A DNA stretch of 64,000 nt from Lysobacterales bacterium (GTDB lineage: Bacteria; Pseudomonadota; Gammaproteobacteria; Xanthomonadales; Xanthomonadaceae). A program made the translations under genes and the position numbers. The stretch covers positions 19,938-83,937 of the forward strand of contig JAGRJY010000006.1 of NCBI GenBank assembly GCA_020442465.1, read 5' to 3'. Within the stretch, counting starts at the first letter, position 1, and the number at the start of each line of letters is the position of its first letter. Shown here in pieces: positions 31,330-38,973 of this stretch. Under the pieces are notes generated by a model. The model was given only the letters and a program-made list of their open reading frames with translations, ran no database searches and was not told the origin of the DNA.

Positions 31330-32052
31330 ATGCCCAGTCAGGTTCTCATCGCCGATGCGCTGGTACTGGTGCGCAGCCTGGCGGCCGACTCCGGCGTGCA
31401 TGCGCACCGCGCACTGCAGCTGGTCTGGAGCGTCGATACGCCGATCGAGGTAGACCTCGACGGCGACACCCGATCCACCCAGTGGGCGGTGCTCGCGCCG
31501 ATGCAGGCCCACCGTCTGCGCGGCAGCGGGCAGCGGCTGGCGCATCTGTTTCTCGACCCAGGGCCAGCACCCTACCGGCGCTGGTTGCGCGCACAGACGC
31601 CCTGCCCTCCCTCGGGCGATCTGGCCGGGCAGCTGGCCGAGTGGTGCAGCGGGGGCTGCGGTCGCAAGCAGGCCGGCAGCCTCGCGCGCGCCTGGCTGGT
31701 GCACAGCCTGCCGGGTCTGGTTGCCACCCGATGTCCCGACGAGCGCATTGCGCGCACGCTGGATCGCCTCGACGCCGACCCCGTCGGCAGCGACGCGCAT
31801 CATCGTCGTCTCGCCGCACAGGTCCACCTGTCGCCCAGCCGCTTCCAGGCGCTGTTCCGCGCCCACACCGGGCAGTCAGTGCAACAATATGTTCTGTGGC
31901 GACGGCTGTTGCGCGCGCTCGAGCGCCTGACCGAAGGGGACAGCGTGACCCGCACCGCCGCCGACACCGGCTTCGCTGACGCCGCGCATCTCAGTCGCAG
32001 CTTCCGCAAGGTGGTGGGCGCCGCGCCGTCGGAGATCCGGCCGCTGGACTGA
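31330..32052 (+). CDS. AraC-family transcriptional regulator
   Basis: HAHRALQ cupin-like N-terminus; LSPSRFQALFR and GFADAAHLSRSFRK HTH motifs. Confidence 0.88.
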   Translation: MPSQVLIADALVLVRSLAADSGVHAHRALQLVWSVDTPIEVDLDGDTRSTQWAVLAPMQAHRLRGSGQRLAHLFLDPGPAPYRRWLRAQTPCPPSGDLAGQLAEWCSGGCGRKQAGSLARAWLVHSLPGLVATRCPDERIARTLDRLDADPVGSDAHHRRLAAQVHLSPSRFQALFRAHTGQSVQQYVLWRRLLRALERLTEGDSVTRTAADTGFADAAHLSRSFRKVVGAAPSEIRPLD

Positions 32053-32088
32053 GCTTCGGCGGTGCCGTACCCAGGCGTTGGCGTGATG

Positions 32089-32123
32089 TGGAGCGGGTGA
32101 TGGGAATCGAACCCACGTTAGCA
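32089..32123 (-). tRNA. tRNA-Gly(CCC) 3' exon (35 nt) of the intron-interrupted host gene
   Basis: Revcomp TGCTAACGTGGGTTCGATTCCCATCACCCGCTCCA: end of anticodon stem, T-arm, acceptor strand and CCA; abuts the intron 3' end. Confidence 0.93.
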
Positions 32124-32198
32124 GTCGGGTGGGAGGATGGCCTCACGGCCACCCTCCCCCCTAAGAACCGTACGTGAGACTTTCGCCTCATACGGCTC
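32124..32198 (-). ncRNA. Group II intron catalytic domain V and branch domain VI
   Basis: GAGCCGTATGAGGCGAAAGTCTCACGTACGGTTC (34 nt, GAAA loop), then GGGGGGAGGGTGGCC-GTGA-GGCCATCCTCCC-A-CCCGAC; branch A at 32130. Confidence 0.95.
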
Positions 32199-32221
32199 AA
32201 GCAGCCACGAACCAACCCCGC

Positions 32222-33865
32222 CTAGCGGGAGTCAGCGGCAGCCATGTCCCCTTTGGCACGCGCGTGCAGCTGCGTGTGACAAGCGGGGTGGAGCAATTGC
32301 AGGTTGGACAACTTGTCCGAGCCGCCGAAGACCCGCCAGTGCCGGTGATGAACGTGCCATCCCGTGGCCTTGGTGATCCCCTGGTGGCAGATTGGGCAGC
32401 ACCCTTCCTGCTTTTTCCAGAGCCAAAACAACTTCCTACGACCCATGAGGCTTTCCAGCATCCGACGCTTCAGGCGCTCGTCGAAGTAGCTTTCGGCCAA
32501 CGGGTCGTACGGGTTAGCGTCGCTCCGGATCTTGATGTGCTTGCCAACCTTGAGGGCGGACAGCAGCACCAGAGAGCCGGTGGAACCGTTGAAAAGCCAG
32601 TCGCGTGAGTCGTGAACCTTGAAATAGCGTTTCTTGACCCAGCGCTTGCCCTTGTTCGGATGTCGACGCTTGGCCCAGCGCCACAACGCTCCGTGGATGA
32701 GGTGGTCCATCTTCGCGAACGGACGCTTGGCGTGAACGACGCGATGGTAGTTGCCCCACCCCCGAATGATCGGGTTGAGCGCAAACACCACGTCCTCCTG
32801 CTTCGCGCCACGTAGCTGACGAAGACGAATCCGTACCTTTTCGAAGAACGCTGCGGAATTCTTCTTCGACGGCGTGATGCACAGAAAATCCTTGTGCTTC
32901 CGGATGTTCCAGCCGAGAAAGTCGAACCCTTCCGACACGTGGGTGATGCGGGTTTTAGACTCCGAGAGCACAAGACCGCGCTCGGCGAGGAATTCCCTGA
33001 CCATCGGTTTGACTTGCGATTCCAACAGCTCTTTCGAGACTGCCGTGACCACGAAGTCATCCGCGTACCGAATGAAGTTGACCTTGGCCCGTCTGGGCAG
33101 AAGCGACAAACGCCGCTCCAGGCCATCCAACGCCAGGTTCGCCAAGGTCGGGGAAATGATCCCGCCCTGTGGCGTCCCGGCGACCGTCGGGAAGAGCCGG
33201 TGACCCTCCACGAATCCGGACTTGAGCCACTTCGACAAGACGGTCCGGTCCATCGGAACGTGTTTCAGCAGCCAGTCGTGGCTGATGTTGTCAAAGCACC
33301 CTTTGATGTCTCCCTCGAGTACCCACTGCGGTGAAGCGCCGCGACTCAGTGCGTTGTGGCACTGGGCAATGGCATCCGCAGTGGAGCGGTGAGGGCGAAA
33401 ACCGTAGGAGTTTGGATCACCGGTGGTCTCGGCAACCGGATCGAGCGCAAGCCAGTGCAGCGCCTGCATTGCTCGATCCCGCATTGTCGGGATGCCCAGC
33501 GGTCGTTGTCCCCCGTTGGCCTTCGGGATGTGGACCCGGCGTAGCGGAAGCGGTCGATATCCACGACTGTTCATCGTGTGCATGCCCGCCCGCTTTGCCT
33601 CCGGAGTCGACCAAGTAATGCCGTCGACGCCGGGTGTCTTGCGGCCCTGATTCTCCGTGACTCGACGTACAGCCACCGCTTTCGCGGCTGTCGAGCGGAC
33701 GAGCAACTGCTGCAGGCGGGATACGCCTCGCCAGTTCTCGTCCTTGGCTGCCTTCGCTATGCGTGTCTGCAACCTCCTGACGCTTCGGTGCACGCGGGCC
33801 CACTCGATGGAGTGCCAGGTGTCCAGATGCGCGGAGGCGACATCGCTATCGTTGATAACGCCCAT
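32222..33865 (-). CDS. ltrA: Group II intron-encoded reverse transcriptase/maturase with C-terminal HNH endonuclease
   Basis: N-terminal WHSIEW..VRRLQTRIAKA..AVRRVTENQGRKTPGVDG, RPLGIPT..DRAMQ, GDIKGCFDNI, GTPQGGIISP, RYADDF, GFDFLG, domain X LNPIIRGWGNY, CPIC..HH..NLQLLHPACH. Confidence 0.97.
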   Translation of the reverse strand: MGVINDSDVASAHLDTWHSIEWARVHRSVRRLQTRIAKAAKDENWRGVSRLQQLLVRSTAAKAVAVRRVTENQGRKTPGVDGITWSTPEAKRAGMHTMNSRGYRPLPLRRVHIPKANGGQRPLGIPTMRDRAMQALHWLALDPVAETTGDPNSYGFRPHRSTADAIAQCHNALSRGASPQWVLEGDIKGCFDNISHDWLLKHVPMDRTVLSKWLKSGFVEGHRLFPTVAGTPQGGIISPTLANLALDGLERRLSLLPRRAKVNFIRYADDFVVTAVSKELLESQVKPMVREFLAERGLVLSESKTRITHVSEGFDFLGWNIRKHKDFLCITPSKKNSAAFFEKVRIRLRQLRGAKQEDVVFALNPIIRGWGNYHRVVHAKRPFAKMDHLIHGALWRWAKRRHPNKGKRWVKKRYFKVHDSRDWLFNGSTGSLVLLSALKVGKHIKIRSDANPYDPLAESYFDERLKRRMLESLMGRRKLFWLWKKQEGCCPICHQGITKATGWHVHHRHWRVFGGSDKLSNLQLLHPACHTQLHARAKGDMAAADSR

Positions 33866-33881
33866 ATCTGTCCTCCAGATG

Positions 33882-33955
33882 TGGAGCGGGTGATGGGAAT
33901 CGAACCCACGTCGGAGGCTTGGGAAGCCACTGCTCTACCATTGAGCTACACCCGC
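33882..33955 (-). tRNA. Complete intron-encoded tRNA-Gly(CCC), 74 nt, in domain IV
   Basis: GCGGGTGTAGCTCAATGGTAGAGCAGTGGCTTCCCAAGCCTCCGACGTGGGTTCGATTCCCATCACCCGCTCCA; full cloverleaf, U discriminator, CCA; one U-U mismatch in the anticodon stem. Confidence 0.92.
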
Positions 33956-34294
33956 CCATGATCCCGAGGGAAAACGGACGTCCCCTGTGGGGAAACGTCC
34001 CCCTCAGGGTGGATGGTTGCGCGACCTGTCTAGCGACAGACCACTATGCGGAAGTCTGCACCCTTTCGGGTCGGGGCGATCATTTCATCCCCTATCCCGA
34101 TCATTACAACCGGGCATTCGCTTTTTCCGCAATCCTTGTCCCGCCGAGACTTCAACGACTCTTGCGAGTCGCCTTGTCGAACGACCAATGCCTTGGCCGA
34201 CCGACATCCCGTCGGGGTTTCCACGTTCCGCACAAGTAACAGGGTTGGGAGGGTTCTGCCTTTCCGCCGGAGGCTCCTTGTCAGCGTGTACCGA

Positions 34295-34386
34295 CCAAGC
34301 AGCGTTACAACCAGCCTCGTCCCATTTTGGGCAGGGCCTACGCAGTCGAGAAGACCTGCATCAGTCGTGTTTGGCCCCTTCAGCTT
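34295..34386 (-). other. Intron exon-binding sites: EBS1 GCUUGG (34295-34300) and EBS2 AAGCUG (34381-34386)
   Basis: Perfect complements of the 5' exon IBS1 CCAAGC (-6..-1) and IBS2 CAGCTT (-13..-8). Confidence 0.85.
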
Positions 34387-34827
34387 GACGACGTTTGACG
34401 GCAGTTCGCTTGTGCTAACCCTTCAACCCAGCCTAGCGCCTCATCGGGATACGACTTCCCGAATCACACTGACCCCCTCGCGGGTTCAGCGTACCCGCTT
34501 GGGTGGCTACATTGCGGAGCGCTTGGCACCGGACCGTTACCAGTCCCGCACCGCTCCGTTGGCTACCGGTGGCTGAACACCGGGTCGGTCATGGGCGATA
34601 AATTGCCCACGCCGACAATTACTTGCGCGGCCTTCGCCGCGTAGGACATTTGCACCCGCGGGTACAAATGCCGGTCCTTTTCGACGGTGGAGAAGATGGT
34701 GAGGCCATCTTTCGCACCGCGCCTTCCGACGTAACGTCGGTTGGCTCCTTGCTCCTGTCTTGGGTTAAGAGGTGACAGGGTTACCCCTTCTAAACGCACG
34801 ACCGTGGCTACGCGGCTCGTGTCGCAC

Positions 34828-34866
34828 GCTTGGGAAGCTGCAGTTCTACCATTGAACTACACCCGC
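34828..34866 (-). tRNA. tRNA-Gly(CCC) 5' exon (39 nt) of the intron-interrupted host gene
   Basis: Revcomp GCGGGTGTAGTTCAATGGTAGAACTGCAGCTTCCCAAGC directly followed by the intron GTGCG. Confidence 0.93.
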
Positions 34867-34877
34867 ACAGGGCAGCG

Positions 34878-34907
34878 ATAATATCGCTCCCTTCACTCCA
34901 CCGGCAA
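34878..34907 (-). promoter_or_regulatory. Putative sigma70 promoter of the tRNA-Gly/intron transcript
   Basis: TTGCCG-18 nt-TATTAT followed by a GC-rich discriminator, 11 nt upstream of tRNA +1. Confidence 0.55.
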
Positions 34908-34933
34908 TTCGGAGCGCACCATGCGGACCTGGC

Positions 34934-35134
34934 ATGCAGATTGAGCTCAACGGCAGCCCGACCCGGCTCGACGCCGACGCCACGGTGGCGGTGCTGATCG
35001 AATCGCTCGGCCTGAGCGGACGGCGCGTGGCGGTGGAGGTCAACCGCGAGATCGTGCCGAAGAGCGAGCACGCGACCCGCGCACTGGCGGACGGCGATCG
35101 GGTTGAGCTGGTGCACGCCCTGGGCGGAGGCTAG
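34934..35134 (+). CDS. thiS: Thiamine sulfur carrier protein
   Basis: 66 aa, [12 protein letters not shown]-terminal GGG. Confidence 0.95.
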
Positions 35135-35294: not shown

Positions 35295-37355
35295 TCAGTG
35301 CGTGCGATTCGGCCCCGGCATCGTCGTCCACGACCCGGTCACCGACGAGGCCAGCACGACCTGATCGCGGCCGGAGCCCTTGGCGTGGTAGAGCGCTGCG
35401 TCGGCCTCGTCGAACAGGTCTTCCGGACGCTTGAGCTCGCGGCCTTCGGTACCGGCCACGCCTATGCTCACCGTCACCTTGTCGAGACCATCGCGACGGA
35501 TCGCACCCACCGCCTCGCGCACCCGCTCCGCCAGCCGCGCGCCCACTGCGACCTCGGCGCCCGGCAGCAGGATCACGAACTCTTCACCGCCCCAGCGCGC
35601 GATCAGGGTGCCGCTGCGCACCGACGACTGCAGGGTGCGGGCAATCGAACACAGCACTTCATCGCCGACGGCGTGCCCGTAGGTATCGTTGAACTGCTTG
35701 AAGTGGTCGACGTCGACCACGAGCATGGTCAACGGCGTTCGCCGCGTCTGCGCGTCGTCGAACTGCTGTGCCAGCCGCTGGGTGAACTCGCGCCGGTTGG
35801 CGACGCCGGTCAGCGGATCGGTGCTTGCTGCCCTGGCGAGCAGATCGGCGCGCTTCTCGAGCTCGCGATGGGCCTGTGACAGATCTTCGCGACTCGACAC
35901 CAGTTCGGAGTTGGTGCGCGACAGCCGGCGCGCAAAACGGCGGCTCTCGGCGTAGCGCCAGGCCAGCAGCAGCGCAGCCAGGCCCAGCGTGGCGATGACC
36001 AGCAGGCCGCGCCACTGCCGCGTCTCCTCGTCGCGCAAGCGCAGCGCCTTGATCTCGTTGTCGCGCTTGAGGATCTCGATTTCGCGCTCGGCCGCCTCGG
36101 TGCGGTGCTGCGACTCCAGCACGGCCAGTCGGCGATTCATGTTGAGACCGCTGATCTGCTCCTGCAGGCGCAGACTTTCCTCGGCGATGTCCAGCGCCCG
36201 GTCATGCATGCCGCGTTCGCGCAGCACCGGCATCATCGCCCGGTAGCTGGTCAGCAGCTGCGGCTGATCGTGCCCACGCTGGTACATCGGCAACGCCAGC
36301 TCCCACAGCGCGAGGGCGTCCTCTTCACGGCCCTGGCGACGGGCAATCTCGGCCAGCAGCGCGCGAAAGTCGGCGAGGGTGCCGTGCTGCTCGATGCGCT
36401 CGGCGATGGCCGCACCCGCCTCGAGGGCGGTACGCGCCTCGTCGAGCCGGTTCAGCCCGAGCAGGGCGCGCCCTTCTTCCAGCCGTGCATAGGCGCGTCC
36501 GGGCGGGCTGTCGAGGCGCTCGACCAGACTGAGGGAGTCGCGCGCCAGTCCAAGTGCTTCGGAGTAGGTGCCGCGCAGGTTCGAAATCTTCGCCATGCTG
36601 CCGAGCAAGGGCGCCTCACGCGCAGCGTCGGCCTGCCGCCGTGCCTCGGCCAGGCCCTGCTCGAGAAACTTGCGCGACGTTTCGTACTCGCGCAAACCGG
36701 CGTAGAGCAGGCCGAGATAGTGCAGGGTGCGATCGAGTTCGGCCTTGGCGCCTTCCGCCTGCAGGCGCTGGCTCTCGCGCAGCGACTCCAGTGCGGTCGA
36801 GTACTCGCCCTGATTCAGACGGATGAGCCCGATGTGGGTCAGCACGGCAGCAATGCCGTCGCGATCGCCGAGCTGGCGGAACAGCGACAGCGCACGCTCG
36901 AAGCCACCGATCGCTTCGTTCAGCGCACCCTGGCGACGCTCGAGCAACCCGATGTCCAGCTCGGCCTGCGCGACGCCCGACAGGTCGCCGCGCTCGGAGG
37001 CCTGGTTCAGCAGCGCGCGGTGCCGGTCGATGGCCTGGGTGTAGCGACCACGACGGAAGTCGATCTGCGCCAGGGCGCGCTCCACCGCTTCGCGCTCGCT
37101 CGGCTGCTTGGCGTGCTCGGCCGCCTCGCCCAACACCCGCTCGGCCGATTCGAAATCGCCGGCGGCCAGCAATCTGCTCGCATCGGCCAGCCGCGTACGC
37201 ACCGCTGCCGCCATCGGAATGGCGGACGCCGCGCTGACGTCGGAACCGGTTTCCGACGGCGTGACCTCGTCAATGTCGATGTTGGCGCGCGCATGGCACG
37301 TCGCGAGCGCCAGCAGCATCGCGGCTGCCAAGCGCCAGATCGATGAATGATGCAT
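35295..37355 (-). CDS. Signal peptide/TPR/TM diguanylate cyclase
   Basis: Signal peptide, TPR repeats, TM, TDPLTG...RWGGEEF; start uncertain. Confidence 0.88.
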
Positions 37356-37477
37356 GCCTGAGCCCATCCCCCGCCCTTGCCGCGTACTGTACCGCGTTCG
37401 AGCGCGCGGCCGGCGTTCCTCCCGTCGGTTCGCAACGATTGCGCCCTTTCGCCGGCGCGCCGGGCCATAATCGCGGT

Positions 37478-38269
37478 ATGAATGCATCGACCGAAGACAC
37501 GCTCACCATCGCCGGGCGCAGCTACCGCTCGCGCCTGCTCACCGGCACCGGAAAATTCGCCGATTTCGACCAGACCCGTCTCGCGACCGAGGCGGCAGGC
37601 GCGGAAATCGTCACCGTCGCGATCCGTCGCACCAACATCGGCCAGGAGCCCGGGCAACCCAACCTGCTCGACGTGCTGCCTCCGTCGCGCTACACGCTGT
37701 TGCCGAACACCGCAGGCTGCTACAGCGCCGACGATGCCGTGCGCACCTGCCGCCTGGCCCGCGAACTGCTCGACGGCCACAAGCTGGTCAAGCTCGAAGT
37801 GCTCGGCGACGCGAAGACGCTGTTCCCCGACGTGGTGCAGACGCTGTCCGCCGCCGAAGTGCTGGTGCGCGACGGATTCGACGTCATGGTCTACACCTCC
37901 GACGATCCGGTGCTGGCCAAGCGTCTGGAGGAAATCGGCTGCGTGGCAGTGATGCCGCTGGCGGCGCCGATCGGCTCGGGGCTGGGCATCCAGAACCGCT
38001 ACAACCTGCTCGAGATCGTCGAGAACGCGAAGGTACCGATTCTGGTCGACGCCGGCGTCGGCACCGCTTCGGACGCGGCCGTGGCGATGGAGCTGGGCTG
38101 CGACGGCGTGTTGATGAACACGGCCATTGCCGGCGCGCGCAATCCGGTGTTGATGGCCGGCGCGATGCGCAAGGCTGTCGAGGCGGGTCGCGAGGCCTTT
38201 CTGGCCGGAAGGATCCCACGCAAGCGCTACGCCAGCGCGTCTTCGCCGGTGGACGGCCTGATCGGCTGA
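37478..38269 (+). CDS. thiG: Thiazole synthase
   Basis: [37 protein letters not shown]. Confidence 0.96.
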
Positions 38270-38973
38270 TGGTTCGCGAGGAGTCCATGCCGGACGGCGC
38301 GCGTCGGCGGCCCATTCGCAGCTTCGTCCTGCGCCAGGGCAGGCTGACGCCGGCGCAGCAGCGGGCGATGGACGAGCTCTGGCCGCGCTACGGCCACGAC
38401 CCGGTCGGCGCGCCGGTGGATTGGGATGCCGTGTTCGGCCGTCGGGCCGAGCATGTGCTGGAAATCGGCTTCGGCAACGGCGAGGCGCTGGATCACGCCA
38501 GTGCGCACGAGGCGCACCGCGATTTCGTCGGCATCGAAGTGCACCGCCCGGGCGTCGGTCGCCTGCTCAACGCGCTGGCGGCGCGCGATGCCAGCAACGT
38601 GCGCGTGGTCTGCCACGACGCGGTCGAGGTGCTGCAGGGCGACTTCGCCGAAGGCTCGCTGGACGAAGTACGGATCTGGTTTCCTGACCCCTGGCACAAG
38701 AAGCGTCACAACAAGCGGCGACTGATCCAGGCCCCCTTTCTCGACCTGCTGGCCAGCCGCCTGCGGGGCGGCGGCTTGCTGCATCTGGCGACCGACTGGG
38801 AACCCTACGCCGAACACATGGTCGAGACGCTGGAGGCCCACCCGAGCTTCACCAACCGGCTCGGTCCGGCGCGTTCTGCGCCTCGACCCGAGTGGCGTAT
38901 TCCCACCCATTTCGAGCAGCGCGGCCAACGCCTGGGACACGGCGTCTGGGACCTGCTCTACGACCGGCGCTGA
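38269..38973 (+). CDS. trmB: tRNA (guanine-N7)-methyltransferase
   Basis: [32 protein letters not shown]. Confidence 0.96.

What the first reader, a model, noticed from the sequence alone, without database searches (positions are those of the whole stretch)
32089..34866. Group II intron that interrupts tRNA-Gly(CCC) and carries its own complete tRNA-Gly(CCC) inside domain IV
Seen: tRNA 5' exon (34866-34828), then the intron from GTGCG (34827) through DV/DVI to CCCGAC (32124), then the 3' exon (32123-32089). A second full 74-nt tRNA-Gly(CCC) with CCA lies inside the intron (33955-33882), in the same orientation, after DIII and the DIV hairpins and 16 nt before the RT ATG. Established: domain IV normally carries only the IEP ORF, and integrative elements that target tRNAs restore them by supplying a gene fragment. 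Inference: this retroelement offsets the cost of sitting in a tRNA by shipping a replacement gene, transcribed from the host tRNA promoter whether or not splicing occurs. I do not know of a described group II intron with tRNA cargo matching its own target. Caveat: tRNA-Gly(CCC) may be dispensable where tRNA-Gly(UCC) reads GGG.
Basis: partly seen in the sequence, partly recalled or inferred. Interest (0 to 1): 0.95.

Follow-up and report, generated by a model that had tools for sequence, protein, structure and literature searches.

The report
Intron carries spare, homing-resistant tRNA gene
A mobile self-splicing intron splits this bacterium's only glycine tRNA(CCC) gene and carries an intact second copy inside itself; a whole lineage of related introns does the same, and the carried copy is nearly always a variant predicted to escape the intron's own targeting, so it likely keeps the host supplied with the tRNA.

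Summary
Confirmed at every coordinate. A 2,704-nt IIB1-type group II intron with an intact RT/maturase/HNH protein interrupts tRNA-Gly(CCC) between positions 40 and 41. A full second tRNA-Gly(CCC) lies in domain IV, 16 nt before the ORF. It is not a one-off: 63 related proteins from Gamma- and Betaproteobacteria form one clade, 62 visibly sit at this site, 57 have the cargo in place, and 33 of 35 metagenome copies do too. The cargo is swapped often yet never matches its own host target (0 of 48; 0 of 22). It usually changes the 29-41 anticodon-stem pair, which breaks two intron-target pairings at once, whereas about 90% of native genes keep A29-U41. Sibling introns and integrative islands have inserted into cargo copies, and three genomes kept the cargo after the intron decayed. 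Best reading: a replacement tRNA under selection to resist its own intron. Expression, charging and immunity are untested, and the tRNA is probably non-essential. A bacterial group II intron in a tRNA gene is known (TeI4h); I found no paper on the cargo. This scan reported the same arrangement before, on another genome.

The parts
34878..34907 (-). Predicted sigma-70 promoter of the host tRNA gene (-35 TTGCCG, 18-nt spacer, -10 TATTAT)
   Evidence: the only promoter-like site in 31900-35100 (0.4 expected by chance); consensus match only
34828..34866 (-). 5' exon of host tRNA-Gly(CCC): first 39 nt, through standard position 40; holds IBS2a, IBS2, IBS1
32124..34827 (-). Group II intron, 2,704 nt, IIB1-type RNA with CL1-type protein
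34381..34387 (-). EBS2a (C34387) and EBS2 (34385-34381); 6 of 6 Watson-Crick pairs with the host exon, 4 Watson-Crick plus 2 wobble with the cargo
   Evidence: covariation; EBS2a as defined in PMC8643678
34295..34300 (-). EBS1, complementary to the last 6 nt of the 5' exon (and to the same 6 nt of the cargo)
   Evidence: compensatory changes in L049 and in the outer introns of L042/L046
34262..34262 (-). EBS3 (A): pairs with host +1 T, mismatches cargo +1 C
   Evidence: best-complementing column for +1, 45 of 50; U in most introns whose host has +1 A
34048..34130 (-). Domain III
   Evidence: RNAalifold consensus
33963..34044 (-). 5' part of domain IV: basal strand, conserved tetraloop hairpin (likely IVa) and a G+C-rich hairpin also present in cargo-less outgroup introns
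   Evidence: IVa assignment inferred
33882..33955 (-). Cargo: complete 74-nt tRNA-Gly(CCC) with encoded CCA, G29-C41 allele; identical to the native gene of two same-genus genomes
33872..33876 (-). Shine-Dalgarno GGAGG of the intron ORF, starting 6 nt after the cargo CCA
   Evidence: conserved across the clade
32222..33865 (-). Intron-encoded protein, 547 aa: RT (YADD), maturase, HNH endonuclease
32124..32200 (-). Domains V and VI
   Evidence: Rfam RF00029, 68.7 bits
32089..32123 (-). 3' exon of host tRNA-Gly(CCC), standard position 41 to CCA; first base is IBS3

Best explanation
[quoted passage not shown] Mechanism: (1, shown from sequence and covariation) EBS1, EBS2, EBS2a and EBS3 read the anticodon arm and put the intron between positions 40 and 41. 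(2, inferred) The precursor from the host tRNA promoter, or from an internal promoter in some betaproteobacterial members, is cut by RNase P and 3' nucleases to release the cargo tRNA without splicing, so GGG decoding is kept up when splicing is slow or lost; a cut in domain IV need not abolish splicing. (3, pattern shown, cause inferred) Swapping the 29-41 stem pair, or less often 31-39, keeps the cloverleaf but breaks two intron-target pairings at once. The intron then does not home into, or cleave, its own cargo, while sibling introns of other specificity and tRNA-Gly islands can use it. (4, shown by relics) When the intron collapses or decays, the host can keep the cargo as its tRNA gene.
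For: Clade of 63 proteins, SH-aLRT 99 in a quick tree. Intact cargo in place in 57 of 63; in 2 more it is intact but displaced by an island, 1 is split by an island, 1 is a 3' remnant, 2 contigs are cut. 33 of 35 clade loci among 80 metagenome hits; 2 of 2 in a 400-genome class sample. None of 18 outgroup loci has it. All 49 distinct cargo alleles keep CCC, G1-C72, C2-G71, U73, CCA and paired acceptor, D and T stems. Host site pairs better than cargo with the intron's own EBS in 44 of 48 (2 equal, 2 worse); EBS3 is Watson-Crick in 44 hosts versus 8 cargos. Replication in 22 metagenome introns: 19 better, 2 equal, 1 worse. Cargo-host difference is in clear excess only at 29/41 (0.86 versus 0.18 between host alleles) and 31/39 (0.14 versus 0.00). 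Native genes are A29-U41 with the common IBS1 in 108 of 115 and 106 of 120 rows (hand counts), cargos in 6 of 53. Cargo state changes 22 times on the protein tree; near-identical proteins carry cargos 8-13 nt apart. Nested introns with reciprocal specificity (L042, L046). Cargo is the only intact CCC match where an island has split the intron (G041, G044). Three relics among 21 rare-allele loci. Ll.LtrB trans-splices when broken in domain IV (PMC1874635, abstract).
Against: No expression, processing, charging, splicing or mobility data; no RNA run was listed. tRNA-Gly(CCC) is probably dispensable: glyU is not among the essential E. coli units, this genome has tRNA-Gly(UCC), and one family of the same order had no pattern match in 17 of 17 genomes. 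In this intron the cargo still matches EBS1 and EBS2a fully and differs by one mismatch plus two wobbles. Exceptions exist: 4 of 48 and 3 of 22 cargos pair as well as or better than the host site. EBS2a pairs with the host in only 33 of 48, so the scoring is imperfect. Tidy cloverleaves could partly reflect recent capture from native genes (11 of 49 alleles were also seen as host or native) and my pattern-based extraction. Processing inside domain IV should cost the intron mobility.
Confidence: 0.7

Rival explanations
1. The tRNA is kept mainly as a processing signal: cuts at its ends free the protein's mRNA from the ribozyme or limit how much full-length intron RNA survives, and any decoding is incidental.
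For: Fixed position, mostly 14-24 nt before the start codon, exactly between the domain IV hairpin and the Shine-Dalgarno, where outgroups have nothing. The cargo leader is purine(-1) G(-2) in 52 of 71 cargos versus 19 of 117 host or native genes; leader pairing with the 3' end slows RNase P, 13-fold for GG on a Met substrate (PMC9433436 sections 6-7).
Against: A processing signal needs a cloverleaf, not a CCC anticodon and glycine identity, which all 49 alleles keep. Hosts kept the cargo after the ORF was lost. The leader is inherited with the intron, so that count is not independent. The two roles are compatible.
Confidence: 0.13
2. The cargo is a by-product of repeated nested insertion and recombination. 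It acts as a spare landing site for sibling introns and islands and gives the host no benefit; non-matching alleles dominate only because matching ones are invaded and collapse.
For: Nested or tandem forms in L042, L046, L061; islands in the cargo in L015, L053, L072, L192, L223; rapid allele exchange; the tRNA is probably non-essential. Twintrons as perpetual homing sites are known (PMC4424553 passages).
Against: No clean loss of the cargo among 63 plus 35 loci, no decayed cloverleaf among 49 alleles, and retention after intron decay in three genomes. This rival shares the immunity step with the best explanation.
Confidence: 0.12
3. The cargo differs from the host allele only to limit homologous recombination with the exons, not to escape the intron's target recognition.
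For: Recombination between exon and cargo does occur (G025 relic at the native thiG-trmB locus).
Against: Excess difference is confined to pairs 29-41 and 31-39, and the longest identical run with the 3' exon is longer than between random host alleles (20.8 versus 15.6 nt).
Confidence: 0.04
4. Mis-assembly or one-off capture.
For: The genome is a 187-contig assembly and the three tRNA pieces are near-repeats.
Against: The same layout occurs in 56 other assemblies, including a complete genome. The spliced and cargo alleles each match native genes of relatives exactly. Exact-match contigs from other studies cover most of the element.
Confidence: 0.01

Closest known systems
TeI4h / T.el4h (Th.e.I3) of Thermosynechococcus elongatus, IIB1 intron with CL1 protein (PMC2882425 passages; PDB 6ME0)
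   Same: Bacterial group II intron in a single-copy tRNA gene with good EBS/IBS pairing; its protein is the best solved-structure match (E 5e-185).
   Different: Target is tRNA-Ile(CAU), described as a single insertion; the passages I read mention no carried tRNA. Here a whole lineage is specialised on one tRNA-Gly site and carries a replacement gene.
EcI5 (E. coli IIB1/CL1 intron; PMC8643678 passages)
   Same: Same target-reading scheme: EBS1, EBS2, EBS2a at -14, EBS3 at +1, domain IVa, ORF in domain IV.
   Different: No tRNA target or tRNA cargo in the passages read.
Integrative elements and prophages that insert in tRNA genes and restore them (recalled; an integrase gene follows the cargo in L105 and L106)
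   Same: Offset damage to a tRNA gene by supplying tRNA sequence.
   Different: They are DNA elements that supply a 3' fragment by site-specific recombination; this is a splicing retroelement that supplies a whole second gene of another allele.
Twintrons of T. elongatus and Methanosarcina (PMC4424553, PMC2882425 passages)
   Same: Nested insertion followed by collapse through recombination.
   Different: Here the inner landing site is a tRNA gene, and nesting is seen between introns of different specificity.
Chloroplast trnK intron with MatK; bacterial group I introns in tRNA anticodon regions (PMC4424553, PMC4090602 passages)
   Same: Self-splicing-type intron in a tRNA gene.
   Different: They depend on splicing alone; no spare tRNA is described in the passages read.

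Membership tests
Mobile group II intron | GUGYG 5' end, domains V and VI, AY 3' end | tested here: met
Mobile group II intron | RT/maturase ORF in domain IV | tested here: met
   TIGR04416 above cutoff, YADD present; position
Mobile group II intron | EBS-IBS pairing that defines the insertion site, and exons that rejoin to a valid gene | tested here: met
   13 of 13 Watson-Crick pairs with the host site; compensatory changes in relatives; joined exons give a tRNA
Mobile group II intron | Splicing and retrohoming activity | not testable with these tools
   no RNA run listed; the spread over many host alleles implies past mobility
Subgroup IIB1 / CL1 lineage | EBS3-IBS3 and EBS2a-IBS2a pairings | tested here: met
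   EBS3 45 of 50 and EBS2a 35 of 50 complementary, each the top column for its exon position
Subgroup IIB1 / CL1 lineage | Protein falls in the CL1 clade and has an HNH domain | tested here: inconclusive
   HNH found and best structure hit is the CL1 T.el4h protein, but no tree with reference lineages was built
Functional tRNA-Gly(CCC) (cargo) | Cloverleaf, CCC anticodon, G1-C72, C2-G71, U73, CCA (identity elements recalled) | tested here: met
   49 of 49 alleles; the window's cargo has one U-U in the anticodon stem, as do identical native genes of two same-genus genomes
Functional tRNA-Gly(CCC) (cargo) | Processed, aminoacylated and used in translation | not testable with these tools
   no RNA data
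tRNA-restoring integrative element (ICE or prophage) | Integrase and att repeats that rebuild the tRNA from a fragment | tested here: not met
   the only long recognised ORF in the element is the RT; the cargo is a full gene differing at 9 positions

The most novel reading that the evidence does not exclude
A rescue-type selfish retroelement that drives tRNA allele turnover: it invades the common tRNA-Gly(CCC) allele, supplies a recoded allele immune to itself, is invaded through that allele by sibling introns of opposite specificity, and on collapse leaves the recoded allele as the host's gene. A leader that slows RNase P would balance tRNA release against survival of full-length intron RNA.
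Probability: 0.35. Interest if true: 0.92.

Novelty: new variant of a known kind. Interest (0 to 1): 0.82.

Why it matters
Bacterial group II introns mostly avoid housekeeping genes, and natural domain IV cargo beyond the protein gene is unusual. This lineage appears to have solved the cost of living in a tRNA gene by carrying a spare that its own targeting cannot read well, a natural counterpart of a recoded rescue gene. It makes self versus non-self target discrimination, tRNA processing inside an intron and intron-driven tRNA allele replacement testable in cultured isolates. It also means annotation tools report an ordinary tRNA-Gly at these loci and miss the split host gene.

Tried and rejected
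RNA evidence: no RNA holder listed; the one guessed-RNA run gave only scattered short contigs, so it says nothing. Joints skipping the intron in DNA runs most likely come from uninterrupted tRNA genes of other organisms and are not evidence of splicing. Exact-match contigs reach only 27-29 letters across the junctions, under the tool's bridging limit, so I did not count them. Plasmids: 0 of 72,556 records cover 80% of the element. Viral contigs: 6 pattern hits, none with a tRNA or the intron protein. Internal promoter in this window: none found. Terminator-like hairpin before the cargo: 2 found, 2.6 expected by chance. I first read G283 as cargo at a host promoter; one search shows its leader is the intron's domain IV hairpin. 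The careful tree did not finish; the quick tree and FastTree were used, with outgroups limited to the best 80 of 461 hits plus two other introns. Rows dropped: one search used 48 of 53 introns with junction and cargo (3 nested, 2 without 3' exon); one search used 22 of 24 (2 duplicates of the first set), inferred +1 in 7, and failed to parse EBS2 in one. Other tRNA species as targets or cargo were not searched directly; all cargos seen were CCC. Literature searches for the cargo arrangement listed nothing that describes it; 'tRNA' does not occur in PMC7306698 or PMC8632793. The library lacks most subscription papers, bioRxiv supplements are closed, and the one supplement searched (PMC8643678) may not hold its intron tables as text.
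Full report
Observation. The intron is 2,704 nt on the minus strand, begins GTGCG and ends CCCGAC. Joining the exons gives a 74-nt tRNA-Gly(CCC) with a fully paired anticodon stem; the insertion lies between standard positions 40 and 41. A second, complete tRNA-Gly(CCC) with nine differences lies at 33955-33882, after domain III and two domain IV hairpins, 16 nt before a 547-aa RT/maturase/HNH ORF. ARAGORN finds no other CCC gene in the 187-contig genome, but finds tRNA-Gly(UCC) and (GCC). The best solved-structure match is the T.el4h protein, which PMC8643678 describes as IIB1/CL1 (passages).

A lineage, not an accident. Of the best 80 of 461 related loci in GTDB genomes, 62 group with this protein in one clade (SH-aLRT 99, quick tree); the other 18 insert elsewhere or are cut short, and have no tRNA beside the ORF. 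In 62 of the 63 clade members at least one junction with tRNA-Gly(CCC) at the same site is visible. 57 of 63 have an intact tRNA-Gly(CCC) just before the ORF. Of the other six, two contigs are cut, two have the intact cargo moved away by an island inserted at its 3' end (about 91 kb in Solimonas fluminis, with an integrase gene next to the cargo), one has an island of about 21 kb in the cargo that brings its own CCC gene, and one keeps only the cargo's 3' end. A metagenome scan keyed on the ORF start, not on the tRNA, gave 35 clade loci among the 80 examined: 33 with an intact CCC cargo and 2 with an att-like remnant. In 400 other genomes of the class, 2 had the junction and both had cargo. 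Outgroup introns have the same domain IV hairpin followed directly by the Shine-Dalgarno, so the tRNA was gained at that point.

Target reading. Covariation places EBS1 at 34300-34295 (compensatory changes in L049 and in the outer introns of L042 and L046), EBS2 at 34385-34381, EBS2a at 34387 and EBS3 at 34262. PMC8643678 shows for EcI5 that EBS2a-IBS2a is a strict Watson-Crick pair needed for mobility (passages). tRNA position 29 lies in IBS2 and its partner, position 41, is IBS3, so one compensatory swap in the anticodon stem breaks two intron-target contacts and leaves the tRNA fold intact.

The cargo avoids its own intron's specificity. In 48 complete, non-nested introns (of 53 with junction and cargo) the host site makes a mean 11.7 of 13 Watson-Crick pairs and the cargo 9.5; the host is better in 44, equal in 2, worse in 2; EBS3 pairs with 44 hosts and 8 cargos; the 15-nt sites are never identical. 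Here the host scores 13 and the cargo 10. In 22 non-duplicate metagenome introns the split is 19, 2, 1 (12, 2, 1 in the 15 with the 3' exon seen). Over 44 pairs the cargo differs from its host clearly more than host alleles differ from each other only at 29/41 (0.86 versus 0.18) and 31/39 (0.14 versus 0.00), and identity with the 3' exon is not reduced; this argues against mere avoidance of recombination. Uninterrupted genes are A29-U41 with the common IBS1 in 108 of 115 and 106 of 120 rows from two orders (hand counts, the two known cargos excluded), against 6 of 53 cargos; two of those six sit in introns whose host allele and EBS2 have moved to a rare type. Shared ancestry does not explain this: the cargo state changes 22 times by parsimony, and sister introns with protein distance under 0.05 carry cargos 8-13 nt apart. 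In L042 the outer intron reads the G31-C39 allele and carried the common-IBS1 allele; that cargo was invaded by an intron reading the common IBS1, whose own cargo is G31-C39. L046 and L061 are similar. Against: 4 of 48 and 3 of 22 cargos are not worse targets, EBS2a pairs with only 33 of 48 hosts, and no assay was run.

Is the cargo a working tRNA? All 49 distinct alleles keep the anticodon, the glycine identity bases (recalled), CCA and paired stems (extraction was pattern-based). The window's cargo equals the native gene of two same-genus genomes, and the spliced allele equals that of a third. The cargo is the only intact CCC match in 5 of 5 complete or long-contig genomes and in two genomes whose intron is split by an island. 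Of 21 loci with rare alleles, three are intron relics that kept the cargo: G025 (native locus, followed by the Shine-Dalgarno and about 37 codons of the intron protein), G283 and G237 (domain IV hairpins plus cargo, ribozyme lost). GGG makes up 58 of 382 Gly codons in eight neighbouring genes. However, glyU is not among the ten essential E. coli tRNA units (PMC11480407 passages), and one family of this order had no match in 17 genomes, so any benefit is likely to fitness, not viability. No RNA run was listed.

Expression and the processing conflict (inference). The only promoter-like site here is upstream of the 5' exon. In 38 of 68 introns, mostly Rhodocyclaceae and Gallionellaceae and not this subclade, a -10-like box lies in the 60 nt scanned upstream of the cargo, usually 43-49 nt before it (controls 11% and 22%); it overlaps an RNA hairpin and is inherited, so it is a lead only. 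Releasing the cargo cuts domain IV. Ll.LtrB still trans-splices when broken there (PMC1874635 abstract), but retrohoming needs full-length RNA. The cargo leader is purine(-1) G(-2) in 52 of 71 versus 19 of 117 other genes (a few cargos were misfiled as native). Leader pairing with the 3' end slows RNase P (PMC9433436 abstract and sections 6-7; measured on a Met tRNA), which could let some intron RNA escape cutting.

Comparison and novelty. It is a member of the group II introns and works like EcI5 and TeI4h in target reading. TeI4h is a known bacterial case inside a tRNA gene (PMC2882425 passages). Most bacterial introns avoid housekeeping genes (PMC4424553 passages), and cargo in domain IV is described for engineered targetrons (PMC3898094 passages). 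Seven searches (listings only) and term look-ups in PMC7306698, PMC8919778, PMC8632793, PMC4090602 and one supplement showed no report of a natural intron carrying a copy of its target tRNA; closed papers and unread supplements could hold one. Two earlier notes of this scan describe the same arrangement and the immunity idea on another genome; I had stated that reading before opening them, and they are not independent evidence. One gave me the TeI4h lead.

Verdict. A real, conserved and apparently undescribed variant of a known element: replacement tRNA plus self-immunity at about 0.7 confidence, interest 0.82.

Noticed in passing
L012, L013, L026, L035, L041 and others, 43-49 nt upstream of the cargo: A -10-like box (TAnnnT, 12 cases with TGn) in 38 of 68 introns, mostly Rhodocyclaceae and Gallionellaceae: a possible internal promoter for cargo and ORF.
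   Followed up: partly
window 33956-33957 (minus) and cargo leaders across the clade: Purine(-1) G(-2) leader able to pair with U73 and C74 in 52 of 71 cargos; a possible brake on RNase P.
   Followed up: partly
G025:C29:1-301 (L128, L282); G283:C27 (L281); G237:C228 (L280): Intron relics in which the cargo tRNA is the surviving gene; G283 has an IS1595-like transposase (name recalled) just downstream.
   Followed up: yes
L015 with G041:C30:211015-303040; L053 with G044:C29; L072 with G043:C23:617302-641740; L192; L223; L251: Integrative islands inserted in the cargo tRNA, splitting the intron; in Thauera propionica the island brings its own full tRNA-Gly(CCC) of the host allele.
   Followed up: partly
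L042, L046, L061: Partly collapsed nested introns in which one intron has invaded the cargo of another.
   Followed up: yes
L039 and L048, intron 5' ends: These introns start GCGCG instead of GTGCG; the L048 ORF appears frameshifted while its cargo is intact and is the only CCC match in that chromosome.
   Followed up: partly
L234 and L183: L234 has a non-tRNA 3' exon yet keeps the cargo (ectopic copy); L183 has a non-tRNA sequence at its 5' junction.
   Followed up: no
L049: Host, cargo and EBS1 all share the rare U38 variant; the contig is labelled Minisyncoccota but groups with betaproteobacterial introns. L005 and L027 likewise carry labels from other phyla (misbinning or transfer).
   Followed up: no
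G000 contigs C182 and C114: A second group II intron protein (53% identical, no tRNA) lacking domains V-VI at its locus, and a lone domain V-VI fragment just before a terminator-like hairpin on another contig.
   Followed up: no
window 34931-35131 (+), 37343-38973: A ThiS-like ORF lies upstream of and divergent from the tRNA gene, with thiG-like and trmB-like genes nearby (names recalled from the sequences); the thiS-tRNA synteny is kept in relatives.
   Followed up: partly
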